DNA from: Squalus acanthias | Taxonomy: Eukaryota | Assembly (NCBI GenBank): GCA_030390025.1 | Contig: CM059436.1 | Span: forward strand, 38,130,001-38,194,000 | Length of the DNA stretch: 64,000 nt | Direction of reading: 5' to 3' | Part shown: positions 9,401-49,015 of the stretch, in pieces | Position numbering within the stretch: the stretch's first letter is position 1 | How the letters are laid out: each line of letters starts with the position of its first letter | Translations under genes and position numbers: made by a program | The notes under the pieces: generated by a model | Database searches by the model: none | Seen by the model: the letters and a program-made list of their open reading frames with translations, nothing else | What the model was told of the DNA's origin: nothing

Positions 9401-9673
9401 GCTCAGTAACTCACCTTCTGGTGGCATGGATTTTGCTATATCTGTTCTGCTCAGGAGTGGTGGGGTTTCGAAGGGGTGTCATCAGCCATGGTAGAAGGGG
9501 ATAACCCTTATCCTCAAGGAGCCATCCTCTAAGATTACCCCCAGGTTGGAACAGTGGGAGGATATTGGAGTGCCTTAAACTGAAAGAACCATGGCAGCTT
9601 CCAGGATGGCAGGCACAGACTTGCAAGAAGTTCTCCTTGTCATCACATACATTTATTGACTGATAAAAGCTCC

Positions 9674-9827
9674 TGGCTGGCCGTGAGATGCCCTGATGGC
9701 TACATATGTCCAGTCAATCATGCCCTACACTTGGGGAAAGTCAATCATAGCAGCGTAGCCCAAGGCTCTCTCATTCTGACTGTGTTCATCTCTCCCGAAA
9801 GAAATGTATTGAATGGCCCTGGTAAAT
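9674..9827 (+). repeat. 154-bp target-site duplication, copy 1 (copy 2 at 11462-11615)
   Basis: tggctggccgtgagatg...ggccctggtaaat occurs on both sides of the RTE with one mismatch (atctctccc vs atctgtccc). Confidence 0.93.
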
Positions 9828-11461
9828 TCTTCCTTCTTCTTCTTAGGCAGTCCCTCGGAACCGAGGATGACTTGCTTCCACATTAAAAATGAGATCTCAG
9901 GTGACTGATGAGTCCAATGCGGGACCTACAGTCTCTGTCACAGGTGGGGCAGACGGTGGTTGAAGGGGCGGGTGGGTGGGGTGCTTGGGTTGACGTGCGC
10001 TCCTTCCGTTGTTTGCGCTTGGCTTCCGCTTGCTCCCGGTGAAGAGACTCGAGGTATTTGGCGCCTTCCCGGATGCTTCTCCTCCACTTTGTGCGGTCTT
10101 GGGCCAGGGATTCCCAGGTGTCGGTGGGGATGTTGCACTTTTTCAAGGAGGCTTTGAGGGTGTCCTTGAAGCGTTTCCTCTGCCCACCTGGGGCTCTGTT
10201 GCCGTGTCGGAGCTCCGAGTAGAGCGCTTGTTTTGGGAGTCTCGTATCGGGCAAGCGGACGATGTGACCCGTCCATCGGAGCTGATCGAGCGTGGTCAAA
10301 GCTTTGATGCTGGGGATGTTGGCCTGAGCGAGAACACTGACGTTGGTGCGCCTATCCTGCCAATGGATTTGCAGGACCTTGCGGAGGCAGCGTTGGTGGT
10401 ACCTCTCCAGTGCTTTGAGGTGCCTGCTGTACATGGTCCATGTCTCCAAGGCATACAGGAGGGCGGGTATTACTACTGCTCTGTAGACCATGAGCTTGGT
10501 GCCGGGTTTGAGGTCCTGTTCTTCAAACACTTTCTTCCTCAGGCGACCGAAGGCTACCCTTGTTGACAGTAGGTTCCCGAGGTATGGAAAGTGGTCCACG
10601 TTGTCCAAGGCCGTGTCATGGATTTTGATAATCGGGGGGCAGTACTGTGTGGCGGGGGCAGGTTGGTAGAGGACCTTTGTCTTACGGATGTTTAGTGTAA
10701 GGCCCATGGTCTCGTACGCTTCGGTGAAGGTGTTAATGATGGTTTGGAGTTCGACCTCTGAGTGAGCGCAGACGCAAGCATCGTCTGCATACTGTAATTC
10801 GACGACAGAGGAAGGGACGACCTTGGATCTGGACTGGAGGCGATGGAGGTTGAACAGTTTCCTGTTTGTTCTGTAAATTAGCTCCACTCCAGCGGGGAGC
10901 TTACTGAGGGTGAGATGGAGCATTGCCGCAAGGAAGATCGAGAAGAGCGTTGGTGCGATGACACAGCCTTGCTTGACCCCGGTCCGTACATGAATTGGGT
11001 CTGTGGTGGAACCGTTGGTCAGGATCACGGCTTGCATGTCGTCGTGAAGCAGGCGGAGGATGGTGACAAACTTTTGAGGGCAGCCGAATTTGAGGAGGAC
11101 ACTCCATAATCCCTCACGGTTAACAGTGTCAAAGGCCTTTGTGAGGTCAAAGAAGGCCATGTACAGCGGTTGGTGCTGTTCCCTGCATTTCTCTTGTAAT
11201 TGGCACGCGGTGAAGATCATGTCCATTGTGCCCCTTAGTAGGCAGAATCCGCATTGCAACACTGGGAGGAGCTCTTCAGCCACTGGGAGAAGGCGATTGA
11301 GGAGGATTCTTGCGATGACTTTCCCTGTGGCAGACAGCAGGGAAACTCCTCTGTAATTACCGCAATCAGACTTGTCACCTTTCTTGAAGATGGTCACAAT
11401 TACGGCGTCTCTGAGATCCCCTGGCATGCTCTCCTTCTTCCAGATAAGAGAAATGAGTTCA
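9828..11461 (-). mobile_element. 5'-truncated RTE-clade LINE
   Basis: RT ORF with GVKQGCVIAPTLF and LQYADD; short 3' UTR ending in (GAA)n; flanked by a 154-bp direct repeat. Confidence 0.92.
9883..11427 (-). CDS. RTE reverse transcriptase with C-terminal CCHH zinc finger (partial ORF, 514 aa)
   Basis: NYRGVSLLS, FFDLTKAFD, YADD, FPYLG, CPTCDRDCRSRIGLISHLRSH; uninterrupted frame with an apparent small in-frame deletion after LLSTR. Confidence 0.85.
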   Translation of the reverse strand: MPGDLRDAVIVTIFKKGDKSDCGNYRGVSLLSATGKVIARILLNRLLPVAEELLPVLQCGFCLLRGTMDMIFTACQLQEKCREQHQPLYMAFFDLTKAFDTVNREGLWSVLLKFGCPQKFVTILRLLHDDMQAVILTNGSTTDPIHVRTGVKQGCVIAPTLFSIFLAAMLHLTLSKLPAGVELIYRTNRKLFNLHRLQSRSKVVPSSVVELQYADDACVCAHSEVELQTIINTFTEAYETMGLTLNIRKTKVLYQPAPATQYCPPIIKIHDTALDNVDHFPYLGNLLSTRVAFGRLRKKVFEEQDLKPGTKLMVYRAVVIPALLYALETWTMYSRHLKALERYHQRCLRKVLQIHWQDRRTNVSVLAQANIPSIKALTTLDQLRWTGHIVRLPDTRLPKQALYSELRHGNRAPGGQRKRFKDTLKASLKKCNIPTDTWESLAQDRTKWRRSIREGAKYLESLHREQAEAKRKQRKERTSTQAPHPPAPSTTVCPTCDRDCRSRIGLISHLRSHF

Positions 11462-13539
11462 TGGCTGGCCGTGAGATGCCCTGATGGCTACATATGTCCA
11501 GTCAATCATGCCCTACACTTGGGGAAAGTCAATCATAGCAGCGTAGCCCAAGGCTCTCTCATTCTGACTGTGTTCATCTGTCCCGAAAGAAATGTATTGA
11601 ATGGCCCTGGTAAATAGTACCTCTGTGACCTGCCTGATGCATTGGTGGGTGCCTGACTGTGATATTCTTGAGATGTCCTCCCCCTGCCAGCCTGGAAGGA
11701 TTCAGGGGCATAAAAGTTGAGGGCGGTTGTTACTTTTACTGCCACTGGCATGGCATGGCCGTCTAGTCCAGCAGGCAGCAAGTCTTCTTCCAGGAGGCTG
11801 AAGAGGTCAGTGTTGACCTGCCCGGACAATCTCAGCCTCCTGAGGCACTGCTCCTCAGACAGGTCCAGGAGGGTAAACCTTGGCCTGTATACCTTGAGAG
11901 GTGGGTAAGGCCTACTGCGAGCAGACCCCCCTCACCTGCTGTCTTTTCTAAGGCCTTGCTGCAGCTCCTGCTTCTTCTTGAGTTCTCTGTTCCTGCTGCA
12001 CTTGCTGCTGCTCTTCTTCTTCCTCCTGCTCCATCCAGTACAGGCCAGCTAAAGCAGCATCCATGCTTAGTTTTTCTGGCTGCAGTTGAGTAGGGATGCG
12101 GAAAAAATTGCAGAAATCCAACAAAAAACATAATAAAAACAAGCTCACAGCCAGGTTTACTCGAGCAAGCAATTTCATCTCCTTCCCCATGGACAACTAA
12201 CAGCAGCATGGAACCAGCAGAGTAATTATTGATTCAGGTGCCTGCATCAATCCGGGCTGTCCTGCAATAAGCCCACCTAAGTTGTCAAGGACTGTGGGAA
12301 TTTGCTGCGATTGGCACAACTTGCCATGCAAGTGGCATCATCATGGTGGCCCCAGGCATGGCAAACAGACCAGTAGGAGAAGCAGGAGTAGCCTAAATAC
12401 ACTTCAGAAGAAAACCCACTGCCAGCTGTGAATGCTATCATGAAATTCTCAAATAAGAGAGCTTCTCTTAACTTGGAAAATTGTCCACTGCATTAACAGT
12501 CCTGTTTATACCCTCTTCATGCCATCCATAACTATGTCTTCATCTGTAGTGTCGCACCTTTTCCACACATCTCACAAATCTCTCATTCATGCTACCTAAT
12601 AAAAACAGCCACTAAATCTTTGCAATAATATTCCCTGCATACACAACTTTAGTACGGACAATTTTTTAATAACCAATCGTAGCCTACTGTTGAATACCAC
12701 AGTGCATCCCCTTGAGGAGGCAGCTATGTCTACATAGCAGCCTCTTGGGATTGAGGTGGCCTTCACCTCCTGGCAGCTGGGGTCTGAGATATACCAGTTG
12801 CACACTATGGCACTTCCACTACTGCATGGGCCTGTATGCTTTTTGGCAGATGGTTAGAGGCTCCGGATGTGTTGGTGCCCTGGGACACAGCAGCATCACC
12901 CTTGCCATATCCAGCCATGCCACTCCTACCGGGCGCAGCAAGTGGCTGCTGGGATGCATCCATTGTCATGCGGCTGCCCGCAGCCCCTGTGCAAGTCAGG
13001 TGCCTTCCCACGGATCCTGCTAACTCCAGCAGAATCAGCTCTTAAAGGGCATTGGCGTGTGTGATCTCGGCATAACTGCTGGGATCACAACCTGCAGTAC
13101 TTTGGGCCCTCACTGTCTAAGTTCACAGTTGAAGAATGGCCACTTGGAAGAGTCATGGCGGGCAACCAGGACCCATGTAACTATACCCAACACAAGACAC
13201 AACTTTCAGAAGAGGAAGGGAATGAAAAATGAGGAAATAGATATTGTTCACCACACTGTACACTCTTGAAACTATGGGCTAGATCTTCTGCTGATTTTAT
13301 TTTGTGTAATTCAAATTGGCGGGGGTAGGAAATGTCTCGAGGATGTGCTCCACTCTGTCTCTCCCCATTTTTAAATAGTTTTGATATTTTGCTAGACGTG
13401 ATGTCGGGTACAGGAAGTGCCCCCCCCTACCCCCCACCAACCTGCCAATGGAAATCTTTAAATTAATGCACAATGGAACAGTGAGATTGTGCGTCATATT
13501 TTCCATCATTGCACATTCATTTACAAGTGTCATAAGGGA

Positions 13540-13972: not shown

Positions 13973-15530
13973 GGGGCTGATTTTAACTCCCCGAAATCGA
14001 CGTTAGCGGATGTAACAGCCTCGGTAATGCTGATGTTCTGGCTGCCACCATTTTGAAAGGGGCTTGCCCATGGGCAGCCGAAGTGCCCGCCTGTTTCGGG
14101 CGATAGGCCTCCTTACTGTGCAAACTGGGGTAATATAATGTAGTCGGGACCCCGCTAGCAAATTTATGGGACAGGTGTGCCGCGCATGCTGCGTCCATGT
14201 GTCCTGGCGTTGAGTGGCCTAAGCAACAATCCGTAAAGGGATAGCTGCTGGCTGCTCCAAAAACAGCCCCAAAACATTCTCCACGTTATATTTTGTGTAG
14301 CCAGAAAGAGCAGCAGTGTTCCTTCTGGCTCCACAAAGATACTGCAGGCCCGCTGCCTTCCCAGCTCACCACCCCTCCCCCGCTTCACCACCCGCCACGA
14401 TTTAGCTGTGGGCTGGCTCAGCGTCAGGGCCGGCTGGAATTCCTAAGGCCCCAAACAAGTGAGCTGCATCGCGATGTCCCGTTAGTGCCCTCAGCTTGCT
14501 CATTCTATTTCAATTAGGCCTAGGCCTCAAAATGGTTTTGGCCTCTTCACTCCTAGAACTGGCAAGCAGCTGGCATGCTCCACCGGTCAGCTGGCACGCT
14601 CCACCGGTCAGCTGTAAAGCTCCACCAGTCAGCTGGCACGCTCCACCGGTCAGCTGGCACGCTCCACCGGTCAGCTGGCACGCTCCACCGGTCAGCTGGC
14701 ACGCTCCACCGATCAGCTGGCACGCTCCATCGGTCAGCTGGCACGCTCCATCGGTCAGCTGGCACGCTCCACCGGTCAGCTGGCACGCTCCATCGGTCAG
14801 CTGGCACGCTCCACCGGTCAGCTGGCACGCTCCATCGGTCAGCTGGCATGCTTCACCGGTCAGCTGTAAAGCTCCACCGGTCAGCTGGCACGCTCCACCG
14901 GTCAGCTGGCACGCTCCACTGGTCAGCTGGCACGCTCCATCGGTCAGCTGGCATGCTTCACCGGTCAGCTGTAAAGCTCCACCGGTCAGCTGGCACGCTC
15001 CATCGGTCAGCTGGCCTGCTTCACCGGTCAGCTGTAAAGCTCCACCGGTCAGCTGGCATGCTCCATCGGTCAGCTGGCACGCTCCACCGGTCAGCTGGCA
15101 CGCTCCACCGGTCAGCTGGCACGCTCCATCGGTCAGCTGGCACGCTCCACCGGTCAGCTGCCCAAAAATTAAAATCTACCTGACAGTAAGGAAATGACAC
15201 AAATATCTGGACAGAGTATTTTTGCAGCATGTAGCGGAATGTGGGCCCTTTTACCTTACCTAGCTTTGTGAGGTCATTAAACTTCTTCTGGCATTGCACA
15301 GCTGTTCAAGGTGGTGTGGGGGTGCTTACCGCTTGTGTCCCTGTTACTATATTATCTTTCAGCCTTTTGGTTTGTGCTGCCTGCTCCCTTAAGGTGCTGC
15401 AAGAATTTAAATCCTGCAGTGTACCAGTCTTTCCATGTCCACAGCACAAGACACCAATCCTGACAGAAGTCCGGTCATCGTTATTAAAATTAGCAGGCTC
15501 CGAGAGTGCGTAGGATGTCGGAATCCACTA
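13973..15530. mobile_element. Degraded Harbinger-type element containing the 21-bp minisatellite
   Basis: Terminus ggggctgattttaac with subterminal sequence shared with the 40260 copy (ccattttgaaaggggc); minus-strand Myb exon QCQKKFNDLTKLGK|GT at ~15254-15436. Confidence 0.55.
14567..15160. repeat. 21-bp minisatellite, ~28 copies (cagctggcacgctccaccggt)
   Basis: Head-to-tail units with recurring variants cagctgtaaagctcc and ctccatcggt; no spacers. Confidence 0.97.
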
Positions 15531-29569: not shown

Positions 29570-30070
29570 CATTGTTCCAGTGCTTAACAAGAATCTATCG
29601 CACTTGGTCTTGAAAATTTCAATTGACCCAGCATCCATAGCCTTTTGGGGGAACGAGTTCCAGATTTCCAGTACTCTTTGTGTAAAAAAGTGCCTCCTGA
29701 TTTCACTGTGAAATAGCCTAGCTTTAATTTTAAGATTATTGCCCCTTGTTCTGGGTTTCCCCATCAGAGGAAACATTTTCTCTGTATCTACCTTATAGAA
29801 TCCCTTCAGCATTTTAAACACCTCAATTAGATCACCCCTCAATCTTCTGAACTCAAAGGAATACAACCTAAGTTTTTGCAACCTGTCCTCATAACTTGAT
29901 TCTTTAAGCCCTGGTATTATTCTGGGGAATCTGTGCTGTACCCCCTCCAAGGCCAATATATCTTTCCTGAGATTTGGTGCACAAAACTGAATGCAGAACT
30001 CCAGAAGGGGTCTGACCAAGACTCTGTACAACTGAAGCATCACTTCCTCACTTTTATATTCCAACCCTCT
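29570..30070 (-). mobile_element. CR1 LINE 3' fragment
   Basis: ORF 29546-30097: LYRVLVRPLLEFCIQF..RRLRGDLIEVFK..FFTQRVLEIWNSFP. Confidence 0.9.
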
Positions 30071-30258
30071 GAAACATGACTTGCAGCTTCTTTCCACCAG
30101 GGATGCTGCCTTGTCTGTGGCTGTGAAGATGATAACAGTATTTCACTTTTATGCATCTGCATGCTTCCAGATGGGCTCTGGTGACATTAATCACATCAGT
30201 CAGTCAGCTGTGCATCACTGCATTAGGTGCATCATGGATGCTCTATTCTGGCATGCCT
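30071..30258 (+). pseudogene. HARBI1-like transposase, 5' part
   Basis: ALSVAVKMITVFHFYASACFQMGSGDINHISQSAVHHCIRCIMDALFWHA (HTH region). Confidence 0.85.
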
Positions 30259-30596
30259 TGAAGGGATAATTACAAGTCCTAGCCCTTTTGAACTACCCCA
30301 GATCAGGCGTATTCCCCAGATGTCTACCTTCAACTAAAGTTTACAGTAGCCGGATCCTATAAGACGCTTAATCGGGTCTAAAGGTCAGACTACCTCTCCC
30401 TAAAGGAAAGAAACGGTCTGAAGATGTTACCGTCCTCCGGATAGTACTTTTAATAAGTTTAACTAGACTGTAACCTTCCGCATATTATGAGGGTCCGGAA
30501 TACCCCCAGAATTCTGCAACTCCTTTGAGTGTACAGAAATTGAGTTCACAAGATGATACAGAAATACTCTTTGAGATTATTCTAAAAATATATAGA

Positions 30597-30631
30597 TTTA
30601 TTACAGAACCGACATTTAGATAACATTTATT
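30597..30631 (-). terminator. LTR polyadenylation signals (two AATAAA)
   Basis: tttatt on + at 30597-30602 and 30626-30631, ~250-290 nt downstream of the TATA box. Confidence 0.55.
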
Positions 30632-30881
30632 ATGGCAATCACAACTTTAATCATTCAAAATACAAATAGCTTACATTTCTTATTCTCAGAGATCCTTATT
30701 CTTAAATCTTAACTTCGTTACATTTCCACACTTCTACTTATTTCTTAATCCAGAATATCCACCAAAATCAAATACCTTGATTACCCGAGACTCAAAAGTT
30801 GTAAACTTACAGAGAATGTCTGTAAAGTTAAGAAACGCTTGTCTTCCCAGCGACTTCTGACTTTCTGTTTGAAAAGGTCTA

Positions 30882-30889
30882 TTTTTATA
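30882..30889 (-). promoter_or_regulatory. LTR TATA box
   Basis: GATATAAAAATAG on the minus strand, ~1050 nt into the LTR (long U3). Confidence 0.6.
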
Positions 30890-31943
30890 TCTTTTTTGGG
30901 TGGTTTATCCTTTGAAGTTTTCCTGATGATGTAAGCTTAATTGTATCAAATCATTCTTTGCTGACTCTGTTCTGTTCTTTATTGATATCTCTGTTGAATG
31001 CTTTCTGTCTTTACTGTCAATTTAGCCATTGCATGCATAATTATGTCTCTACCTTAGATGTTTCAAAAACCATCATAAACACAATGACAGCAATGGTTTC
31101 TGTTTGATGCAATTCTTAGGAAGTCTTTCTATTGAATTTCTAATACTACTTTAACTGGTTATTATCAGACGTTGTGTCTCCGTGGTATTCCAAGTTCAAT
31201 TCAAGAACAATGTAATTGCTTGGTGCATCCATTGAAGTAATATTTTCAAAGTCGTCTTGTTTGTGTACCTTTTACAACTTGTAAATACTTCATCTAGGGT
31301 GTTCCATACATTTCTTATTTACTTCAATTGGTTTTTATCAGACCTCAGGACTCCATATTTCAAGCTTAACATTAAAACTATTTGTTCAGCAGGCGTTTCT
31401 TTTACTTGATGTCATTTCTTCAAAGGCTTCTGTAGGTATCATACTTATAATATGTAAATTGAAAACACTTTAACTCAGTGTTTACTTGTTTTCCAGCTAT
31501 CTCAATTGGTTGCATATTTAATCGTGTTTCCTGTCTTTAAGTTTAACATAAAACTATTTTACAACAGGTATTTCTTACTTGATGTCATTTTTTCAAAGGC
31601 ACTTGTTTTTTTTTAATGTTCTGTGCATCTGTTCGACGTGTTAGATTATAATACTTTACTTGGGTCATTCCATTGTTTTTTTTCCCAAACTCTAGACATA
31701 GAGGAACCTCCCAATGGTTTGCTTCAATAGGGCATTGTCTTTGTCAATATCCCATTCCCATATCAAAGCTTGTGTTCACAGCTTTGTGTTAACAAACCAT
31801 CTTATCTCATAAGCCTGTATTCTGTTTGCAGCCTGTGTCTGCTAAGGCTTATGTCTTTTAAACCCAGTATGTCATTTATTAATAATTTCAGAAATCTGTT
31901 TTTAGTATCGTGTTTTTTTCTGAATCCTGACTATTCATTCACA

Positions 31944-31953
31944 CCCCCGCCTT
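31944..31953 (-). other. Polypurine tract (plus-strand primer)
   Basis: AAGGCGGGGG immediately before the TGTG LTR start. Confidence 0.7.
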
Positions 31954-32584
31954 GACCAAAAGATGAGTTTAAAACTTCAGGGCAGAGTTTGGTCAATATT
32001 GCTCATGAGGTTACAATAGCATATTAATTTTACGAGATGCACAATCATGTGCTACATGAAAATTCCTTTTAAATCATCCTAGGACAATGTTTTGCCTTAT
32101 TTTAAATTGTACACAATTTAAAAGGATGATAATACATAGTCATGTATGAGCGAAACAACATGTACTTAGAATGTCCAATCAGCAGATGTACGTTCCGTAG
32201 AGGTGAGTTCTTCATACGAGTCAAGGAGACGTCAGTTGAAACTAGTTGAAGCTTGACACGCTGTTCCTTTGATCTGGCGTGTGTACCGATGCTTGTATCT
32301 GTATAGGCCTTACGAGGCATTCAGTTGATTCCTTCTTTATCCGCAATGTCTTCCTCCTTCGTTAAAGTAACTCATTGATCTTTCCTTGTTTCGGTTGTTG
32401 CTTTTCGCAAATCCAACTCCTGATGCGTTGCCAAGCAACGTGTAGAAGAGCCGACGACACCTTCTGACTTCCCATCATCAGTAATTCGATCGCATCCATT
32501 TCCTGTGTCGTGCTCCAAGCTGGGTCTTAAAAGACAGTGTACAACTGCACCTTGTATTGTTCCTCCTTTTCGGTATCCAGCAGG

Positions 32585-33805
32585 ACATCTCTTGATATTG
32601 TCTATGGAGACAGTTTTAAAAATATTCTTGCCATTCGGCTGGTTAACATGTATTTGAACTGTTCTTTCGTTAATAACAGATTGCATTTGAACAGGTTTTT
32701 TCCACTTCGTTCTTAAACCAGGTTTTTGCTCGAACTTCTTTTCCTGTACCCATTCTCCTACTATGGGTTGCCATGCTTTATTTATCAATTTTTCTGCCTA
32801 TTTGCTTCCCTTATCCTCTGATCAATTCGATGAATCTCCTTTGTTACTTTTTTTAAAACTTTTTTTTTTAACTGTCGCTGTTGGGTCAAGGACTCAAAGT
32901 GTGTAGAGGCAATAAAAGAACCATGAGTAAGCAGTGTATGCATTTCAACCCCATACATCAGATAATATGGAGTTTTAGGGGACACTGTCCCTGATGCAGA
33001 TGTGGGCACGTTATTGAGTGATAGCTGTACTTCCGGAATTATGGCGGTCCACTTGTTTCTCTGATTCTCAACAGTTTGACCAATAGCTGTATTACTCCCC
33101 GATTTTTTACATTCCCCCAGCCCCGCTGATTGTGGATGACGTGGCGTGCTGTGCTCTAACCCAATCCCCCTTTGTTCACAGTAGTCTTTGAAGACCTTGG
33201 ATACAAAGGCTCCGCCTTTAATGGAGTGTAAGACTTTGGGTGCAGCAGCTACAGTAATTATATCAGAAATAGCCCTGGCGAGTGCGTTTTCCGAAACAGT
33301 TTTTGTGGGGACCAGCCAGCAAAAGGAATTGCATCCATCCACACAAACAAGAACATGTCTATATCCCAAAGATGGGGAAAGTGGTCCAATAAAATCAATA
33401 AAGAATTTTCCCATTTGCTCATCAGCTTTCACAGGAGCCAATGGTGGTGGCTTAATTTAGTGATGACTTACTAGTCGAATAGCATGGCTCACAATTTGCC
33501 ACGTATGTTTTACAGGCTCTAAGCATGCCTGGCCACCAATATAAGAGGGTCAATTTGCAGAATGTTGTTCTGGCACCACAATGTACTTAACTTATGCCCT
33601 TGTGAGCTTCTTTTACAAGCTGTTTCATTTGTGGCTCGGGGGTACTTCTCGGTTTCCCTTGGGCAACTTAACTAGTACAATACCCGTAGGGGTTTCCAAG
33701 TAAGAGTACTTTGGTGGATATTCTGGTGGATTCTCTGTTATTGGGTCTAATAGCTGAATCAGTTCGTCATCCTGATTAGCTGCCCGTTCTGCCCTAGTGA
33801 TTACA
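32585..33805 (-). pseudogene. pol: Foamy-type integrase, frameshifted and catalytically mutated
   Basis: N-terminal extension DELIQLL..YPPKYSY..EVPP; HHCC EAH..HCG..YWWPGM..CEPC; core KFFIDFIGPLSPSLGYRHVLVCVDG, LHSIKGGAF (second D lost), HSTPRHPQSAGLGE; CTD WQPIVGEWVQE..LRTKWKKP..INERTV..TVSIDNIK. Confidence 0.92.
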
Positions 33806-33849
33806 CTAACATTGGCAGGCCCCTCTCGAGGGGGTGTCATGCAGACCGA

Positions 33850-34200
33850 ACATTTCGCTTGTTCGTCAGCAAGGCTGTTTCCTTTTGAGTGTACTTATTC
33901 CAGTGGTATGCCCGTTTACATTAATCACCTGACAATTCTGTTTCTCCATCCTCGAATGGAGAATTTCTCCCCACAGTGTGGGTTTAATAAGGTCTGCTTT
34001 CTCTAAAGCATATCGTAATGCTGCGGCTTTAGCATATTGCGCTGTCTCGTGGCCAAGGGGTTTAGACAGAAATTCTTCTGTTATAAATTTTTTAAAAAAT
34101 AGGAATCTCGAAAAGTCCCTACTGCTCTCCCCATCCCAGCTGAGGATTGTTGGGATGTCTCTTTTTTAATCGTCATTGACGTTCCATCACGGTAAATAAC
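33850..34200 (-). pseudogene. pol: Foamy-type RNase H remnant with internal deletion
   Basis: VIYRDGTS..SSAGMG..KPLGHETAQYAKAAALRYALEKA..LWGEI..NGH..VHSKGNSLADEQA; resembles foamy FYTDGS/AGMG/PLGNHTAQMAE/GNALAD. Confidence 0.85.
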
Positions 34201-34388
34201 TTGATGGTATTCTATAAGCGGTCTCATAAGTATTTGTTTTGTGTGAATCCCCCTAATGATTTTTTACAAATTGGGCTTTCACTTGTGTATTTGTGGGCAT
34301 TTTTGCCAAGGCATAGGGGAATTCAGGAGGCCCTGGCTGTGTGCCAGGCCTTCAATCCTGGGATTGTTCATCCTCAGAATTCTGAGCT

Positions 34389-35009
34389 TTATTTGTTGCG
34401 TTGTCTTTTAATTATTTTAACTGATTTTTGTTCCTCCCTCTTGGGGGTTTCATGTTTTCCAGATCCCTGAGGGGTTTTGTCGGACCGTTTATTATCTTGA
34501 CGATCCTCCTGTTGAGGTGGACGTTGGTTCTGCCGGGAATCTTTTTGATCCCCATATCGGTTTTCCCGATATCCTCCCATGGCTCTTTGATAACTTTGGC
34601 CAGTGTAAAAGCTGTCCCCATAGGGAGTCCACTGTCATTCGCTTTCCTTTCGAGGTCTAGCCCCTCGTCTATCCCATCTTTCTGAGGAGAAATCTGTCTC
34701 GTATTGTGGGCGAGTTGGGGGTGTAAACCTTCTGGAATACCCTCTTGGGGGTCCCGAGCCACGAGTTTGTGTCTGGGCAGGATGGACTTGAGACTTGGGT
34801 CTATACAGTCCTTCTTTCTGAGTACTTTCTCCGTTTTTTTATCCCTAGTTTCTGATCTCATTATAGGTTTAGTTTGGGGTAGACCTAAGAGGTCATGATT
34901 TAATTGGATAATGCGATTGACATTATCCCATTTTTGTTGGTTATCTCGATAATCGTTTAGAGCACCCTCACAAGCAAGTTTGAGGGCTGTATTTTGGTAT
35001 TCCTTCACA
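34389..35009 (-). pseudogene. gag: Foamy-type Gag C-terminal remnant
   Basis: ALKLACEGALND..RIIQLNHDLLGL resembles the end of the foamy capsid CTD (..VYEILGL); followed after a frameshift by a G/R/Y/Q-rich region (RGSGPPRGYSRRF..RWDRRGARPR..GGYRENRYG); no Cys-His box. Confidence 0.7.
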
Positions 35010-35720
35010 GCCTCTAAGTCCATTCATTTCAACATAGACCCAACAAAGCAGAGAGAGAGAGAGAAAACCATCAACTTCTTCTGAGTGGCTGTATTCTCAC
35101 AAATGCAGGGTAGCCTTGATGCCACCCACATGGCTATAAAGGGCCCATCTGTTTACTAACTTCATAAACAGGAAGGCATTTAATTTCCTGAACATCCAGA
35201 CAGTGAGTGATACTAACCACTTAATTATGCATGTCAATGCATGTTACCCAAGGAGTATCCATGATTACTTTGTCTCAGACAATCCTTGATTCCTCAACTG
35301 CTCAGCCAGAGCGATGTGACAGGTTGGCTGATAGGAGACCAGGGAAAGCCACTTCAGCCTTGACTGATGATATCTCTTTGCACTCCAAGGACTGAGACTA
35401 AAAACAGGCTCAATGAATGGGTGTTATCAGATTAATGTGGAACAAACCATTGGAAGTGACTGGACAGGTCCAGGAGAGCCCTGCAGTATAGTCCAGCAAG
35501 AGTTTCTAGAATTGTAGTTTGCTGCATCCTCCATAATTTGGCCATTAGCAAGGGTTTCTGTCTTCTAAGCACAGAATGTGAAGAGGAAGATAGTGGTGGA
35601 GATGAATCCTTTGCTCATGATGAAGAAGTCCAGAAGAGAGAGAGAAAGTGAGTCCAGGCACCCAACTGCAAGCAACACAAATCATTAGGCAAATGATCAT
35701 CATCAGCTTCGACCAATAAA
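35010..35720 (+). pseudogene. HARBI1-like transposase, 3' part
   Basis: SKSIHFNID..QMQGSLDATHMAIKGP..INRKAF..HVNACYPRSIHD..GWLIGDQG..LQYSPARVSRIV..CILHNLA; joins 30258 in frame once the provirus is removed. Confidence 0.85.
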
Positions 35721-42020: not shown

Positions 42021-45000
42021 ATATTCTTGTCATTTGCATCTTCTTGAAGTATGCTGGGCATTGTTTGGGCAGACATCGATATGCCGGATGTCACTTTTTG
42101 ATGGAAAACCCCAGAAGTGCCATCAGGTGGCATGGAGCTGGCAGAACATCTCCCATCCAATCTTCCTCCCAAACCTATCCAGGTTACAACAACACAATTG
42201 ATAGCAAAGTGATTGATTTAGTCAAAGTGGTTTACTTGTGTAAACAAAAAGAAATTTGGCCTTATGTTTTTTATCTGCTGTCAAGGGTTCGCATGGAGAG
42301 GCATTCTCTGAATAACACACTGCTATCATGTTTATTAGGTCACTTCAATTTGTCTTTCACTTATGGGGTTAAAATAATGTTGGAAGAGTCACATCCAAGC
42401 GGAGCAGTTCCATTGGTATTCTTGACCTATTAAAAGCTAATCTAAAATAAACCTTTCTCAAATTTTCTGGTGAATTTATTAATTTCCCAGTCGCAGTAAT
42501 TTTTATCAGCAGTAGCCAGCTAATGAGCAATTACAGAACATGAAAAGGAACCTTAGGAGCTGAACATAAGTTTTTTTTTAAAGTAATAAATTTGAAAAGA
42601 TATAACTCGTTAAATAAAATGAAAGTCAGCAGGAAAATATATTTTTGGAGCCAATATAATTGCATACTAAAAATGAGCATTTAACTGTTGCGGTTTTGAA
42701 TTAAGCACCAAATGTCCAAACTGTTAAGACAAGCATCTAAACTTCAAAATAGTCACGCCTACATCTTAAATCAAAGATTTGGTAAATATTTCAAAGCCCA
42801 CAGCAGAAAAAAAGCCTTTAGAAGCACAATGATAAAAGGAAGAGACAATTTGCAAATAAAGATTGGCCAATGTAATTAGCACATTTTCCATTTGAAGTCC
42901 ACAGTGGGTATGGGGCAAGGATTGGAATGCAATATGAAACATCTCTTCCATTTTTTTCAAATATAAATGAATTATTTTTGTCTTAAGAACCCAACATTAA
43001 CAAAAAGCTAGTCACAGCCTTCTAACTCCTCAGTCTGTAAGCTATATGATGTGGAAGGCAAAATAGCATCTGCCTGGTAGATTCATCACTAGAACACAGT
43101 AATCACAAAGACATAAAAAGTGACAGGCATACAGGATATACATGGGTTCTGATCTGATATCCAATTGAAACAATGAGTAGATCTGACTACATAACACACA
43201 GTCCAAGATTTTGACACCATTTAAGCATAGAAACATAGAAGAAAGGAGCAGGAGTAGGCCATTCGGCCCCTCGAGCCTACTCCGCCATTCAATGCGATCA
43301 TGGCTGATCATCCAAATTCAGTACCCTGTCCCTGCTTTCTCCCCATATCCCTTGATCCCCTTAGCCTTAAGAAATATATCTAACTCCTTCTTGAATATAT
43401 TTAATGAATTGGCCTCAACTGCCTTCTGTGGTAGAGAATTCCACAGGTTCACCACTCTCTGGGTGAAGAAATTCCTCCTTATCTCAGTCCTAAATGGCTT
43501 ACCCCTCTATCCTTAGACTGTGACCCCTGATTCTGGACTCCCCCGCCATCGGGAACAGCCTTCCTGCATCTAATCTGTCTAGTCCTGTTAGAATTTTATA
43601 AGTTTCAATGAGATCCCCTCTCATTCTTCTAAACTCTAGCGAATATAAGCCTAATCGACCCAATCTCTCTTCATACGTCATTCCTGACATCCCAGGTATC
43701 AGTCTGGTGAATCTTGGCTGCACTCCCTCCATGGCAAGAACATCCTTCCTCAGATAAGGTGACTAAAACTGCACACAATACTCAAGGCCCTGTACAACTG
43801 CAGCAAGACATCCTTGCTCCTGTACTCGAATCCTCTCGCTATGAAAGCCAACATACCATTTGCCTTCTTAACCGCCTGCTGCACCTGCATGCTTACCTTC
43901 AGTGACTGGTGCACAAGGACACCCAGGTCTCGTTGCACTTCCCCTTTTCCCAATCTATTGCCGCTCAGATAATAATCTGCCTTCCTGTTTTTGCCACCAA
44001 AGTGCATAACCTCGCATTTATCCACATTATACTGCATCTGCCATGCATCTGCCCAATCACCCAACCTGTCCAAATCATCCTGGAGTTTCTCTGCATCCTC
44101 CTCACAGCACACACGCCCACCCAGCTTTGTGTCGTCTGCAAACTTGGAGATATTACATCTAGTTCCCTCGTCTAGATCATTAATATATATTGTGAATAGC
44201 TGGGGTCCTAGCACCGATTCCTGCGGTACCCCACTAGTCACTGCCTGCCACTCGGAAAAAGACCCATTTATTCCAACTCCTTGCTTCCTGTCTGCCAACC
44301 AGTTTTCTATCCAAGTCAGTACCTTACCCCCAATCCCATGTGCTTTAACTTTGCACGCTAATCTCTTATGCGGAACCTTATCGAAAGCCTTCTGAAAGTC
44401 CAAATACACCACATCCACTGGTTCTCCCTTATCTATTCTACCAGTTACATCCTCAAAAAATTCCAGTAGATTAGTCAAGCATGATTTACCTTTTGTAAAT
44501 CCATGTTGACTTTGTCCGATCCTGTCACTGTTTTCCAAGTGATCTGCTATTACATCTTTTATAATGGACTCTAGCATATTCCCCACTACCGATGTCAGGC
44601 TTACCGGTCTATAATTCCCCGTTTTCTCTCTACCACCTTTTTTAAATAGTGGGGTTACATTAGCTACCCTCCAATCCATGGGAACTGTTCCAGAGTCCAT
44701 AGAATTTTGGAAGATGACCAGCAATGCATCTACTATTTCTAGGGCCACTTCCTTAAGTACCCTAGGATGTAGATTATCAGGCCCTGGGGATTTATCGGCC
44801 TTCAGTCCCTTTAATTTCCCTAACACCATTTCCCTACAAATACTGATTTCATTCAGTTCCTCTCTCTCATTAGACCCTATGTTCTCCGACATCTCTGGGA
44901 GGTTATTTGTGTCCTCCTTTGTGAAGACAGAACCAAAGTATGTATTTAATTGGTCTGCCATTTCTTTGTTCCCCATTATAAATTCCCCTGATTCTGACTG

Positions 45001-45103
45001 CAAGGGACCTATGCTTGACTTCACCAATTTTTTCTCTTCACATATCTATAGAATCTTTTACAGTCAGTTTTTATGTTCCCTGCAAGCTTACTCTCATACT
45101 CTA

Positions 45104-45330
45104 TGATGTAAGAAAACTACTAGGCACTTGGTCTAAGCATTAAACAAAGCTTTAATCAACTGTTTTACAACATGGAGGTCTAGTTGTGTCCTTCACTTGT
45201 TCCTGTTAAGAATGTCCTGCGCAAGCTGGGCCCGTGCCCGAGTATTTATACTCTCCCTGGACAGCGCCACCCGCAGGCCACTCAGTATTATTTCATAAGT
45301 CTTTCTTTCATGAATGACAGATTCATGTCA
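45104..45330 (-). mobile_element. Solo LTR, 227 bp
   Basis: TGATGT...ATGTCA ends; 5-bp TSD ctcta/ctcga; minus-strand TATAAA (~45245-45250) and ATTAAA (45151-45156); removal restores the CR1 sequence. Confidence 0.78.
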
Positions 45331-46565
45331 CTCGATTTTCCCCCTCTTAATTAATCCCTTTGTCCTCCTTTGCTGAATCCTAAACTGCTCCCAATCCTCA
45401 GGTTTGCTGCTTTTTCTGGCCAATTTATATGTCCTCTCCTTGGATCTTATGCTATCTCTAATTTCCCTTGTTAGCCACGGTTGAGTCACCTTTTTTGTTT
45501 TATTTTTATGCCAAACAGGGATGAACAAATTCTGTAGTTCATCCATGCGATCTTTAAATGTTTGCTATTGCCTATCCACTGTCAACCCTTTAAGTAACAT
45601 TTCCCAATCCATCCTAGCCAACTCGCGCCTCATACCATCGTAGTTTCCTTTATTTAAATTCAGTACCCTACTCTCTGAGTCAACTACTACTTCACTCTCC
45701 ATCTTAATGAAGAATTCTATCATATTATGATCGCTCCTCCCCAAGGGGGCTCGCACAACAAGATTGCTAATTAATCCTTTCTCATTACATAATACCCAGT
45801 CTAAGATGGCCTGATCTCTAGTTGGTTCCTTGACATATTGGTCCAGGAAACCATCCCGTATACACTCTAGGAATTCCTTTTCCACAGAATTGTTTCTAAT
45901 TTGATTAGCCCAATCTATATGTAGATTAAAGTCACCCATGATAACTGCTGTGCCCTTATTGCACGCATCTCTAATTTCCCATTTAATGCCATCCCCAACC
46001 TCAGCATTACTGTTTGGGGGTCTGTATACAACTCCCACTAACGTTTTCTGCCCCTTGGTATTTCTCAGCTCTACCCATACAGATTCCACATCATCAGAGC
46101 TAATATCCTTCCTTACTATTGTGTTAATCTCCTCTTTAACCAGCAATGCTACCCCACCTCCTTTTCCTTTTTGCCTGTCCTTCCTGAATATTGAATACCC
46201 CTGGATGTTGAATTCCCAGCCTTGATCACCCTGGAGCCATGTCTCCGTAATCCCAATTATATCATATCCATTTACATTTATTTGTGCAGCTAATTCATCC
46301 ACCTTATTACAAATGCTCCTCGCATTAAGACACAAAGCCTTCAGGCTTGTTTTTTTAACACTCTTAGACTTTTTAGAATTATTGTTTACTGTGGTCATGT
46401 TTGATTTACACCCTTGATTTCTCTGACTTCCACTTTTGCTTTTCTCATTCCTGTCTTTTGCTTCTATCCTTGCTTCCCTTTCCTCTGTCTCCCTGCACAG
46501 GTTCCCAACCCCCTGCCATTTTAGTTTAAACCCTCCCCAACAGCACTAGCAAACACTCCCCCGAG

Positions 46566-49015
46566 TAAAGGATCCCCTTGGAATGAGTGACCATAACATG
46601 GTTGAGTTCCATATTCAATTAGAGGGTGAGAAGGTTGGATCTCAAACAAGCGTGCTAAGCTTGAATAAAGGAGACGATGAAGGTATGCGAGCGGAATTGA
46701 GTAGAGTGGATTGGGAAAATAGATTAAAGGGTAAGACGACACATGATCAGTGGTGTACATTCAAGGAGTTATTTTACAACTTCCAAAAAAAATATATTCC
46801 ACTGAAAAGAAAAGGGTGTAAAAGAAAGGACAGTCATCCGTAGCTAAGTAAAGAAATTAAGGATAGTATTCGACTAAAAACAAGTGCATATAAGGTAGCG
46901 AAATCTAGTGGGAGGACAGAGGATTGGGAAAACTTTAAAAGGCAGCAAAAAATAACAAAAAGATTGATTAAGAAAGGGAAGATAGATTATGAAAGTAAAT
47001 TAGCAAAAAATATAAAAACAGATAGTAAGAGTTTTTATAGTTATATAAAAAGAAAAAGGGTGGCTAAAGTAAATGTTGGTCCCTTAGAGGATGAGATAGG
47101 GAAATTAATGGTGGGAAATATGGAGATGGCAAAAACACTGAATGAATATTTTGTATCAGTCTTTACAGTAGAGGACACTAAGAATATCCCAACACTGGAC
47201 AAACAGGGGGCTATAGGGGGAGAGGAGCTAAACACGATCAAAATCACTAAGGAAGTGGTACTCGGTAAAATAATGGGACTCAAGGCGGATAAATCACCTG
47301 GACCTGATGGCTTACATCCTAGAGTCTTGAAGGAAGTGGCGGTAGGGATTGTAGATGCATTGGTAATAATTTTTCAAAACTCCCTGGATTCCGCTAAGGT
47401 CCCGGCAGACTGGAAAACTGCTAATGTAACACCCTTATTTAAAAAGGGCAGTAGACAGAAGGCTGGTAACTATAGACCGGTTAGCCTAACATCTGTGGTA
47501 GGTAAAATTTCGGAGTCCATTATTAAGGAAACAGTAACAGGACATTTGGATAATCATAATTTAATAGGACAAAGTCAGCATGGTTTTACAAAGGGGAAGT
47601 CATGTTTGACAAATTTGCTGGAGTTCTTTGAAGAAGTAACATATAGAGTGGATAAAGGGGAACCAGTGGACGTAGTGTATTTAGACTTCCAAAAGGCATT
47701 TGACAAGGTGCCACATAAAAGATTATTGCTTAAGGTAAAAAATCACGGGATTGGGGGTAATATTCTGGCATGGATAGAGGATTGGCTATCTAACAGAAAG
47801 CAAAGAGTTGGGATAAATGGTTCATTCTCAGACTGGCAATCAGTAACTAGTGGTGTTCCACAGGGGTCAGTGCTGGGTCCCCAACTCTTTACAATCTATA
47901 TTAACGATTTGGAGGAAGGGACCAAGTGTAACATATCAAAATTTGCAGATGATACAAAGATGGGAGGGAAAGTAGTGAGTGAGGAGGACATAAAAAACCT
48001 GCAAGGGGACATAGACAGGCTAAGTAAGTGGGCAGAGATTTGGCAGATGGAATACAACACTGGAAAGTGTGAGGTGATGCACTTTGGCAGGAAAAATCCT
48101 AGAGCAATTTATTATCTTAATGGCAAGAAACTGGAGAGTACTGAAGTGCAAAGGGATCTGGGGGTCCTGGTGCACGAAACTCAAAAGGTTAGTATGCAGG
48201 TGCAGCAAGTGATTAAGAAGGCAAATGGAATGTTGGCTTTCATTGCTAGGGGGATAGAATATAAAAATAGGGAGGTATTGCTTCAGTTGTATAAGGTATT
48301 GGTGAGACCGCACCTGGAATATTGCATACAGTTTTGGTGTCCTTACTTAAGGAAAGACATCCTTGCTCTCGAGGCAGTGCAAAAAAGGTTCACTCGGTTA
48401 ATCCCGGGGATGAGGGGGTGGTCATATGAGGAGAGGTTGGGTAGATTGGGACTCTACTCATTGGAGTTCAGAAGAATGAGAGGCGATCTTATTGAAACAT
48501 ATAAGATTGTGAAGGGGTTGGATCGGGTGGATGCGGGGAGGATGTTCCCGATGACGGGTGAGACGAGAACTAGGGGACATAGTCTTAGAATAAGGGGCTG
48601 CTCTTTCAAAACTGAGATGAGGAGGAACTACTTCACTCAGAGGGTGGTAGGTCCATGGAATATGCTGCCACAAAAAGCTGTAGAAGCTACATCATTAAAT
48701 AAATTTAAAACAGAAATAGACAGTTTCCTAGAAGTAAAGGGCATTAAGGGTTACGGGGAGCGGGCAGGAATTTGGACATGAGTCTAGGTTCGGATCGGTC
48801 ATGGCCCTGTGGGTAGTGGAGCGGGCCCAGGGACCGTGTAGCCTGATTCTGCTCCTATTTCGTGTGTGCAATTCTGTTAGATGCAGGAGATGGTTCTGTG
48901 ATAGTAGATTGGCGGTTAGGATCAGATCAGCCATGATCTTATTGAATGGCGGAGCAGGCTCGAGGGGCCGATTGGCCTACTCCTGCTCCTATTTCTTATG
49001 TTCTTATGTTCTTAT
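46566..49015 (+). mobile_element. Young 5'-truncated CR1 LINE inserted antisense into ORF1 of the older CR1
   Basis: Host ORF1 splits at ccccgag|gacatcgg; (ttcttatg)n tail; long open RT frame. Confidence 0.93.
46964..48781 (+). CDS. CR1 ORF2 reverse transcriptase (605-aa open segment)
   Basis: [43 protein letters not shown]; in-frame stop upstream at 46841-46843, endonuclease mostly truncated. Confidence 0.85.
   Translation: MIKKGKIDYESKLAKNIKTDSKSFYSYIKRKRVAKVNVGPLEDEIGKLMVGNMEMAKTLNEYFVSVFTVEDTKNIPTLDKQGAIGGEELNTIKITKEVVLGKIMGLKADKSPGPDGLHPRVLKEVAVGIVDALVIIFQNSLDSAKVPADWKTANVTPLFKKGSRQKAGNYRPVSLTSVVGKISESIIKETVTGHLDNHNLIGQSQHGFTKGKSCLTNLLEFFEEVTYRVDKGEPVDVVYLDFQKAFDKVPHKRLLLKVKNHGIGGNILAWIEDWLSNRKQRVGINGSFSDWQSVTSGVPQGSVLGPQLFTIYINDLEEGTKCNISKFADDTKMGGKVVSEEDIKNLQGDIDRLSKWAEIWQMEYNTGKCEVMHFGRKNPRAIYYLNGKKLESTEVQRDLGVLVHETQKVSMQVQQVIKKANGMLAFIARGIEYKNREVLLQLYKVLVRPHLEYCIQFWCPYLRKDILALEAVQKRFTRLIPGMRGWSYEERLGRLGLYSLEFRRMRGDLIETYKIVKGLDRVDAGRMFPMTGETRTRGHSLRIRGCSFKTEMRRNYFTQRVVGPWNMLPQKAVEATSLNKFKTEIDSFLEVKGIKGYGERAGIWT

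What the first reader, a model, noticed from the sequence alone, without database searches (positions are those of the whole stretch)
34998..35013. Provirus with no 5' LTR but an intact TSD: its end is an att-site look-alike inside gag
Seen: the right boundary TATTCCTTCACA|GCCT matches the U3 terminus of the 3' LTR (TATTCATTCACA, 31932-31943) at 11/12 nt, yet runs straight into the gag frame (VKEYQNTAL). Removing 30259-35013 restores the host transposase in frame (..DALFWHA-SKS-IHFNID..), with the same spacing as the copy near 11600 (LFTRA-IQY-ISFGTD). Inference: either integrase used a cryptic internal att-like site, or a microhomology deletion fused the 5' LTR tip to gag.
Basis: partly seen in the sequence, partly recalled or inferred. 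Interest (0 to 1): 0.72.

Follow-up and report, generated by a model that had tools for sequence, protein, structure and literature searches.

The report
Proviruses with tip-only end repeats
This ancient foamy-like virus copy has lost its whole front end except the last 12 letters, several sister copies are clipped the same way at one end or the other, and the likely cause is a slip of the viral copying enzyme just after it starts, before the virus inserted.

Summary
A foamy-like endogenous retrovirus (30259-35009, minus strand) sits in a Harbinger-like transposon with an exact 4-bp target duplication and no 5' LTR. The boundary is not a look-alike inside gag. None of 29 other gag copies has it, and it is identical to the U3 tip of 28 of 30 LTRs. 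So the true 8-12-nt tip is joined to gag through a 4-nt microhomology, and about 2.9 kb are missing. Contigs from two samples span the junction.

The pattern recurs. In 160 fetched stretches, four more proviruses keep only 12-32 nt of the 5' LTR, two keep 25-39 nt before a deletion inside the 5' LTR, and two keep only 14-18 nt of the 3' LTR. All eight have exact duplications and different junctions. Breakpoints crowd the outer tips (6 of 17 within 40 nt, p about 1e-5).

Best reading (0.55, inferred): short nascent strands jump just after priming in reverse transcription, and integrase selects products that keep an att tip. Host repair at integration is the main rival. Similar defects are known in HTLV-1 and HIV-1. 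Three look-ups of the scan's notes showed no such report.

The parts
34998..35009 (-). Retained outer tip of the 5' LTR (U3 att end), 8-12 nt
   Evidence: Identical to the tip of 28 of 30 LTRs; absent from gag in 29 of 29 other copies
34998..35001 (-). 4-nt microhomology (AATA) shared by LTR tip and gag; the deletion junction
   Evidence: chance of 4 or more shared letters at a random junction 0.025
35010..35013 (+). Target site duplication, right copy (GCCT)
30255..30258 (+). Target site duplication, left copy (GCCT)
30259..31943 (-). Complete 3' LTR, 1685 nt, TG...CA
   Evidence: 96.3% identical to the 5' LTR of a relative
31944..31953 (-). Polypurine tract (plus-strand primer site); this variant marks a subfamily
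   Evidence: 12 other exact matches of tract plus tip in the genome
34412..35001 (-). 3' part of gag; roughly the first 300 codons, the leader, the primer binding site and the rest of the 5' LTR are missing (about 2.9 kb)
   Evidence: the gag frame of a relative hits Pfam Gag_FV_central, E 2e-14
32375..34230 (-). Decayed 3' part of pol (RNase H region remnant and integrase); protease and reverse transcriptase are absent, a loss shared with two-LTR relatives; no env
   Evidence: Pfam rve and SH3_11; best PDB matches are foamy virus integrase, E 5e-40; shared internal deletions. Left boundary of the RNase H part is approximate.
30060..30258 (+). Left part of the interrupted Harbinger-like transposase remnant (outer limit approximate)
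   Evidence: Matches paralogues at 71-85%
35010..35400 (+). Right part of the interrupted Harbinger-like transposase remnant (extends further; limit not mapped)
   Evidence: Matches paralogues at 70-79%; weak Pfam DDE_Tnp_4 hit, E 0.008, below the curated cut-off

Best explanation
This foamy-like provirus carries the true 12-letter outer tip of its 5' LTR joined to the middle of gag, and the join likely arose during reverse transcription, before integration. Shown: the tip is the family's U3 end; the join has a 4-nt microhomology; about 2.9 kb are gone; the 4-bp duplication is exact; the same kind of join recurs at other loci and its breakpoints crowd the outer tips. Inferred: plus-strand synthesis primed at the purine tract stopped after about 12 nt. 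The short strand paired through AATA with the minus strand in gag instead of running on to the primer binding site, and both strands were then completed. The product had a normal U5 end and a U3 end just long enough for integrase, which inserted both ends together. Inferred for the mirror cases (whole 5' LTR, 14-18 nt of 3' LTR): the tRNA-primed minus strand jumped early to an internal site, and the 5' LTR came from the second packaged genome. Both outer tips are the two places where reverse transcription starts, and the lower limit of about 12 nt would be set by what integrase needs. The copy has no promoter, primer binding site or enzyme genes, so it is predicted to be a dead end.
For: Tip identity and junction. 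Recurrence among 160 stretches of the own genome (analyses 31, 32, 34, 41, 42, 44, 45, 61, 80). U3-tip-only ends joined to internal sequence: L090 (12 nt), L087, L240, L225. Tip followed by a deletion confined to the 5' LTR: L160, L239. U5-tip-only ends: L117 (about 14), L135 (about 18). All 8 have exact 4-bp duplications and different junctions. Clustering: leaving out the window, 4 of 11 LTR-to-internal fusions break within 40 nt of the U3 tip (binomial p 2.7e-4 against a uniform 40/1270) and 2 of 6 internal-to-LTR fusions within 40 nt of the U5 tip (p 0.014); together 6 of 17, p 9e-6. Same sequence at the inner tips: 8 of 161 outer tips against 1 to 3 of 207 inner tips, by how doubtful cases are counted (one-sided Fisher p 0.007 to 0.049). 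Microhomology of 2-4 nt at four of five U3 joins (null 0.18, 0.066, 0.025 for 2, 3, 4 nt). L087 joins next to a 9/12 match to the tip, the top score in its internal region, as annealing of a nascent strand predicts. The window's junction occurs once in the genome. HIV-1 RT pauses after adding 12 nt to the purine-tract primer (PMC3185654, figure legends read). An RT route to an intact 5' LTR with a deleted 3' LTR is proposed in PMC9278108 (passages). 5'-LTR loss before integration with intact repeats is reported for HTLV-1 (PMC6950816, passage).
Against: No step of the mechanism was observed; a fossil cannot date the deletion relative to integration. Microhomology fits host end joining equally well (PMC13427564, passages), and LTR-linked deletions arise without RT or integrase (bioRxiv 10.64898/2026.10.12.758617, first fifth read). 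The two U5-tip joins show 1-2 extra letters rather than clean homology, and the L240 join is ambiguous (1 to 7 nt by reading). The inner-tip control is not empty: L089 breaks to host DNA 16 nt into its 3' LTR, L236 inverts at 33 nt, and L117 has a deletion 31-45 nt from its inner U5 tip. With these counted, U3 alone gives p 0.09 and U5 alone p 0.38. Two to four paired bases are little to hold two 3' ends. The pause at 12 nt is for HIV-1 RT and was not shown for foamy RT. Counts are small and the 40-nt cut-off was chosen after seeing the data.
Confidence: 0.55

Rival explanations
1. Host repair at the moment of integration: full-length DNA was inserted by both ends, then a break or an over-running gap fill next to the integrase-bound end was repaired by microhomology-mediated end joining, sparing only the protected tip.
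For: Explains the symmetry of U3 and U5 cases directly, the exact duplications, the preference for outer over inner tips, and both microhomology and 1-2 extra letters. Integration leaves a gap and overhang for cellular repair (PMC6784120, passage). A footprint of roughly 16-20 bp for the foamy intasome is recalled, not from a call.
Against: Retained lengths tail off to about 100, 132, 225, 479 and more instead of piling at one footprint length. No deletion confined to the 3' LTR ended within 45 nt of the outer U5 tip among 72 visible ends (nearest about 70 nt, L161), whereas two such deletions start at the outer U3 tip among 89; numbers are too small to decide.
Confidence: 0.25
2. An ordinary later deletion in the germ line removed 2.9 kb from an intact provirus, and the breakpoint happened to fall 12 nt inside the end.
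For: Copies of this family are full of later insertions, deletions and inversions; about 40 internal hits start late without a family hit just before them. For one locus picked because it looks odd, chance is enough. Inner tips also break at times.
Against: Breakpoints crowd the first 40 nt at loci that were not picked for this trait (6 of 17, p 9e-6) and favour outer tips. No alternative allele was listed in contigs of two samples (contigs drop rare variants and 3 loose ends were not shown).
Confidence: 0.16
3. Integrase used a cryptic att-like site that is native to gag.
For: Proposed for HTLV-1 proviruses whose short repeat abuts pol or env (PMC6950816, passage). A 9/12 look-alike exists in the leader-gag region and L087 joins beside it.
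Against: Native gag at this site is 7/12 and does not start with TG; 29 of 29 copies lack the motif. No internal 12-mer scores above 9/12 in 4 of 4 two-LTR copies scanned. Among 10 tip-less truncated copies with a visible 3' end, 1 had a duplication-like 4-mer near the edge, against 0.7 expected by chance.
Confidence: 0.02
4. Assembly collapse or chimera at the junction.
For: The element belongs to a high-copy family (2525 first-look candidates for the LTR start).
Against: Independent short-read contigs from two samples and two studies span the junction; the duplication and the host-element register are exact.
Confidence: 0.02

Closest known systems
HTLV-1 type 2 defective proviruses (5' LTR lost; Tamiya 1996, Miyazaki 2007, as summarised in PMC6950816 and PMC7877780)
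   Same: No 5' LTR, intact 3' LTR, intact target duplication, read as loss before integration.
   Different: The review describes the repeat as joined to internal pol or env sequence and invokes integrase recognising an internal site; here a true U3 tip is kept. These are somatic and selected in leukaemia; here germ-line and with no evident selection. I recall that the 2007 paper also found short LTR remnants in some cases, but it was not held, so this is unverified.
HIV-1 proviruses with asymmetric LTRs (Joseph et al. 2022, PMC9278108)
   Same: One whole LTR and one LTR deleted together with internal sequence; an RT misalignment with transfer between the two packaged genomes is proposed.
   Different: There 24 of 26 asymmetric cases are 3' deletions, ending mostly in U3, and 5' deletions are under 100 nt; the method needs U5 and gag-leader primer sites, so tip-only ends would be missed.
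Strand-transfer deletions in retroviral vectors (Pulsinelli and Temin 1991)
   Same: Large deletions from errors in strand transfer in one round of replication (title seen in the reference list of PMC9278108).
   Different: Text not held; whether it includes joins 12-40 nt from the purine tract was not checked.
[quoted passage not shown]
   Same: Foamy-type Gag, RT and integrase, tRNA-Lys-type primer site, long LTRs, presence in cartilaginous fish.
   Different: The copies examined hold about 6 kb or less between primer site and purine tract and no env or accessory region was seen; no tree was built, so the lineage within FLERVs is not fixed.

Membership tests
Foamy-like endogenous retrovirus (Spumaretrovirinae-related, FLERV) | RT closest to foamy virus RT | tested here: met
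   An open RT stretch of a relative matches foamy Pol in PDB at E 5e-95, against Ty3 7e-33 and gammaretroviral RT 6e-29; a YVDD-type motif in 39 of the 160 stretches. PDB holds few retroviral genera, so this is not a phylogeny.
Foamy-like endogenous retrovirus (Spumaretrovirinae-related, FLERV) | Foamy-type Gag | tested here: met
   Pfam Gag_FV_central, E 2e-14, above the curated cut-off, in a relative whose internal region is 96.3% identical to the window's; the window's own gag remnant had no Pfam hit
Foamy-like endogenous retrovirus (Spumaretrovirinae-related, FLERV) | Integrase closest to foamy integrase; 4-bp target duplication | tested here: met
   PFV integrase E 5e-40 against HIV 8e-4; exact 4-bp duplication in 20 of 25 LTR loci with both ends and 38 of 42 proviruses with both ends. 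That 4 bp is the foamy value is recalled.
Foamy-like endogenous retrovirus (Spumaretrovirinae-related, FLERV) | tRNA-Lys-type primer binding site | tested here: inconclusive
   A conserved site follows the 5' LTR in relatives; its likeness to the foamy tRNA-Lys site is recalled, it was not paired with a tRNA here. It is deleted in the window copy.
Foamy-like endogenous retrovirus (Spumaretrovirinae-related, FLERV) | env and accessory genes between pol and the 3' LTR | tested here: not met
   The purine tract follows the integrase end within about 0.4-0.7 kb in the window and in the copies mapped. Longer env-bearing members may exist but were not seen in stretches of 10 kb.
Foamy-like endogenous retrovirus (Spumaretrovirinae-related, FLERV) | Placement inside the foamy clade in a Pol tree | not tested
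   No reference set was fetched; one homologue search returned nothing at E 1e-20
Type 2-like defective provirus (5' LTR lost before integration) | 5' LTR absent, 3' LTR intact | tested here: met
Type 2-like defective provirus (5' LTR lost before integration) | Exact integrase-type duplication at both ends | tested here: met
Type 2-like defective provirus (5' LTR lost before integration) | Duplication joined directly to native internal sequence (cryptic att) | tested here: not met
   A true U3 tip lies between duplication and gag
Type 2-like defective provirus (5' LTR lost before integration) | Loss shown to precede integration | not testable with these tools
   Only inferred from clustering of breakpoints at outer tips
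PIF/Harbinger transposase (host element) | DDE_Tnp_4 transposase domain | tested here: inconclusive
   E 0.008, 16 bits against a cut-off of 24.8, in 1 of 7 frames scanned; termini were not mapped

The most novel reading that the evidence does not exclude
Tip-only proviruses are a recurring by-product of retroviral replication at both ends. In this long-LTR foamy-like family about 1 in 20 visible outer ends is a 12-40-nt tip joined to distant viral sequence, because nascent strands jump just after priming at the purine tract and at the tRNA. The shortest survivors (12 nt at U3, about 14 nt at U5) then record, in a germ-line fossil series, the smallest end that integrase can use in vivo. The same class would be invisible to standard proviral PCR assays.
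Probability: 0.4. Interest if true: 0.65.

Novelty: new variant of a known kind. Interest (0 to 1): 0.46.

Why it matters
Whether large proviral deletions arise during reverse transcription or later by host repair is an open question for HIV-1 and HTLV-1 (PMC13427564 and the bioRxiv preprint, passages read). This family gives a natural series with built-in controls: hundreds of copies, exact duplications, and the same tip sequence present at an outer and an inner position. If the clustering holds in a full survey, it ties one class of deletions to the priming or integration step and gives an in vivo lower bound for att length. It also explains 'one-LTR proviruses with intact duplication' without cryptic integrase sites, and such copies are missed by LTR-pair annotators. 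The single locus is a dead, non-autonomous copy with no function implied.

Tried and rejected
Native att look-alike in gag: rejected. Amplified subfamily with this junction: 1 match in the genome with up to 1 mismatch, the window itself; the backwards control also gave 1. Cryptic-att class among tip-less copies: 1 of 10, chance level, and that one uses viral letters. Two further U5-tip candidates (L098, L163) were dropped as chance look-alikes because they had no matching duplication. Tip-like hits at an internal pol site in about 20 loci were dropped as native sequence inside continuous matches. L185 (44 nt, then a deletion of about 20 nt) was not counted. L082, L095, L118 and L231 were not counted as fusions because foreign DNA lies between LTR and internal part. 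The joint microhomology probability printed is not used, since it assumed 3 nt for L240. A permuted one-LTR circle was rejected because the tip is present twice and gene order is normal. Run X16 (another species) holds the family and part of the flank but no piece across the junction; nothing is concluded from that. The orthologous empty site in related species was not seen. A homologue search with the integrase fragment among longer proteins found nothing at E 1e-20. Literature searches showed no listing that describes tip-only ends in endogenous or foamy retroviruses; two key older papers were not held, subscription journals are mostly missing, and no supplements were read.

Full report
1. 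What is in the sequence. The window lies at G000:C12:38130001-38194000 in a 3.7-Gb genome. An LTR element occupies 30259-35009 on the minus strand between two copies of GCCT (30255-30258, 35010-35013). It has a complete 3' LTR of 1685 nt (30259-31943), a purine tract beside it, a decayed integrase (Pfam rve and SH3_11) and the 3' part of gag. It has no 5' LTR. The 12 letters at its 5' end match the start of the 3' LTR at 11 of 12, the only 1-mismatch copy in the window.

2. The duplication and the junction are real. The flanks belong to a Harbinger-like transposase remnant (weak DDE_Tnp_4 hit). Compared separately with 10 paralogues, the two flanks overlap by exactly 4 nt in 6, four of them with a single GCCT; the other 4 gave no usable left-flank register. 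One contig in each of three public runs (two samples, two studies) runs from gag through the tip into the host flank, and no alternative allele was listed. Contigs drop rare variants, so this shows presence only.

3. The boundary is the real LTR tip. All 29 other gag copies fetched diverge from the window exactly before AATA; native gag scores 7 of 12 against the tip and lacks the terminal TG. The boundary 12-mer is identical to the start of 28 of 30 LTRs, so the odd letter is in the window's own 3' LTR. The structure is thus an 8-12-nt U3 tip joined to gag through AATA. Measured on six two-LTR relatives the missing piece is 2.4-3.1 kb, 2894 nt in the one whose LTR has the window's length. It covers the rest of the 5' LTR, the primer binding site, the leader and about 300 codons of gag. 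The loss of protease, RT and env is older and shared with two-LTR relatives (96.3% identity). The exact junction occurs once in the genome.

4. The family. RT and integrase match foamy virus proteins far better than other solved structures (E 5e-95 and 5e-40), Gag hits the spumavirus central domain, and duplications are 4 bp. I did not check whether it is the same family, and I built no tree. No env was seen in the copies mapped here. Paired LTRs differ by a median 4.8% over their last 400 nt (34 loci, range 1.5-19.8%). At the rate assumed in PMC10699275 (0.5e-9 per site per year; passages read) that is some tens of millions of years, a rough figure.

5. The pattern recurs. I fetched 160 stretches of about 10 kb around gag and purine-tract motifs (for places; 24, 27-30, 36-38 for DNA; three short extensions). 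Three pairs overlap. None was chosen for the state of its outer ends. Four proviruses have a U3 tip joined directly to internal sequence: L090 (12 nt, shared TA), L087 (16 nt, shared CCA), L240 (26-30 nt, ambiguous join) and L225 (32 nt, shared AGA). The landing sites range from gag to the end of integrase. Two have a tip followed by a deletion confined to the 5' LTR: L160 (25 nt) and L239 (39 nt). Two are mirror images, with a whole or nearly whole 5' LTR and only about 14 nt (L117) or 18 nt (L135) of the 3' LTR. All eight have exact 4-bp duplications. Longer remnants also occur: about 100, 132, 225, 479, 740, 896 and 1157 nt on the 5' side, and about 120, 170, 540 and 625 nt on the 3' side.

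6. Is it more than chance? If breakpoints were uniform along the LTR, 40/1270 would fall in the outer 40 nt. Leaving out the window, 4 of 11 do on the 5' side (p 2.7e-4), 2 of 6 on the 3' side (p 0.014), 6 of 17 together (p 9e-6). The cut-off was chosen after seeing the data. The same tip sequences also occur at inner positions. Outer tips show 8 deletion joins among 161 (6 of 89 U3, 2 of 72 U5). Inner tips show 1 to 3 among 207, depending on whether L089 (break to host DNA at 16 nt) and L236 (inversion at 33 nt) are counted beside L117; the other five of seven interrupted inner U3 tips are insertions or foreign DNA. One-sided Fisher p is 0.007 to 0.049 for both ends, 0.008 to 0.09 for U3 alone and 0.38 for U5 alone. 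The clustering is solid; the outer-versus-inner contrast is suggestive only.

7. Mechanism. Shown: true tips, exact duplications, short homology at most U3 joins, unique junctions, clustering at the ends. Inferred: the ends had to be intact when integrase acted, and the deletions are tied to that stage, not to later decay. My preferred route (0.55) is a premature strand jump in reverse transcription. The two outer tips are where the two DNA strands are primed. HIV-1 RT adds 12 nt to the purine-tract primer, pauses and removes the primer (PMC3185654, figure legends), and two of five U3 remnants here are at most 12 nt. A short plus strand that pairs with the minus strand by a few bases would replace the normal transfer at the primer binding site. 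L087 joins beside a 9/12 match to the tip, the top score in its internal region, which fits annealing. For the mirror cases, an early jump of the tRNA-primed strand plus a 5' LTR from the second packaged genome follows the scheme proposed for HIV-1 in PMC9278108 (abstract and passages). The main rival (0.25) is host end joining at the gapped, integrase-bound intermediate, which explains the symmetry and the extra letters at the U5 joins at least as well. Microhomology does not separate the two (PMC13427564, passages; bioRxiv 10.64898/2026.10.12.758617, first of five parts). Ordinary later deletion (0.16) cannot be excluded for this one locus. Cryptic att use (0.02) and artefact (0.02) are refuted.

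8. Relation to what is known. HTLV-1 type 2 defective proviruses lack the 5' LTR yet keep the 6-bp repeat, read as loss before integration (PMC6950816, passage; PMC7877780, passages). HIV-1 proviruses often have asymmetric LTRs (PMC9278108). So the kind of defect is known. What I did not find listed in searches is a description of tip-only ends as a recurring class at both termini, or in an endogenous or foamy-like virus. Miyazaki 2007 and Pulsinelli and Temin 1991 were not held, and I recall, unverified, that the first mentions short LTR remnants, so the novelty may be smaller. Other papers seen as passages only: PMC5512871, PMC13132914, PMC6784120, PMC12789967. Three look-ups of the scan's own notes (8 of 178 LTR notes shown in the last) showed no report of this pattern; one note (e1-8036428) describes another one-LTR asymmetry in this genome, not tested here.

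9. Verdict. Observation confirmed; interpretation half right. The locus is a dead copy whose 5' LTR was reduced to its att tip. Its value is as one of at least nine such ends in one family, which together suggest a slip at the priming or integration step. New variant of a known kind, interest 0.46.

Noticed in passing
L089:6604-7512 (G000:C10): Only the last 900 nt of the internal region, the purine tract and 16 nt of the 3' LTR remain, ending in CA; the flanking 4-mers differ by one letter that could be CpG decay. Either a double deletion or an insertion with two abnormal ends.
   Followed up: partly
L117:1248-4569: U5-tip-only 3' end together with a deletion near the inner U5 tip and an inverted piece of LTR placed behind the primer binding site; exact duplication. 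Looks like several template switches in one event.
   Followed up: partly
L235 and L236 (G000:C7:76.16-76.18 Mb); L233 and L234: Head-to-head inverted arrangements of family copies that share one 3' LTR region.
   Followed up: no
L102, L103/L104, L113/L114, L156/L157: Tandem proviruses sharing LTRs; L102 starts with a 100-nt LTR remnant joined to integrase and has one duplication around the whole array.
   Followed up: partly
L082-L241: The family consists of many deletion classes shared by 10-28 copies each, some with almost no gag or RT; no env was seen, which suggests spread inside cells by helper copies.
   Followed up: partly
window 14441-15280: Tandem array of a 21-nt unit, about 27 or more copies, open in several frames.
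   Followed up: no
window 11500-11900, minus strand: Second Harbinger-like transposase remnant, adjoining a LINE with a 534-aa RT frame (9883-11487) and a 167-nt direct repeat (9668-9834, 11456-11622, 96%).
   Followed up: partly
window 43783-48301: Two CR1-type LINE copies in inverted orientation, 1095 nt at 72%, one with a 645-aa open frame.
   Followed up: no
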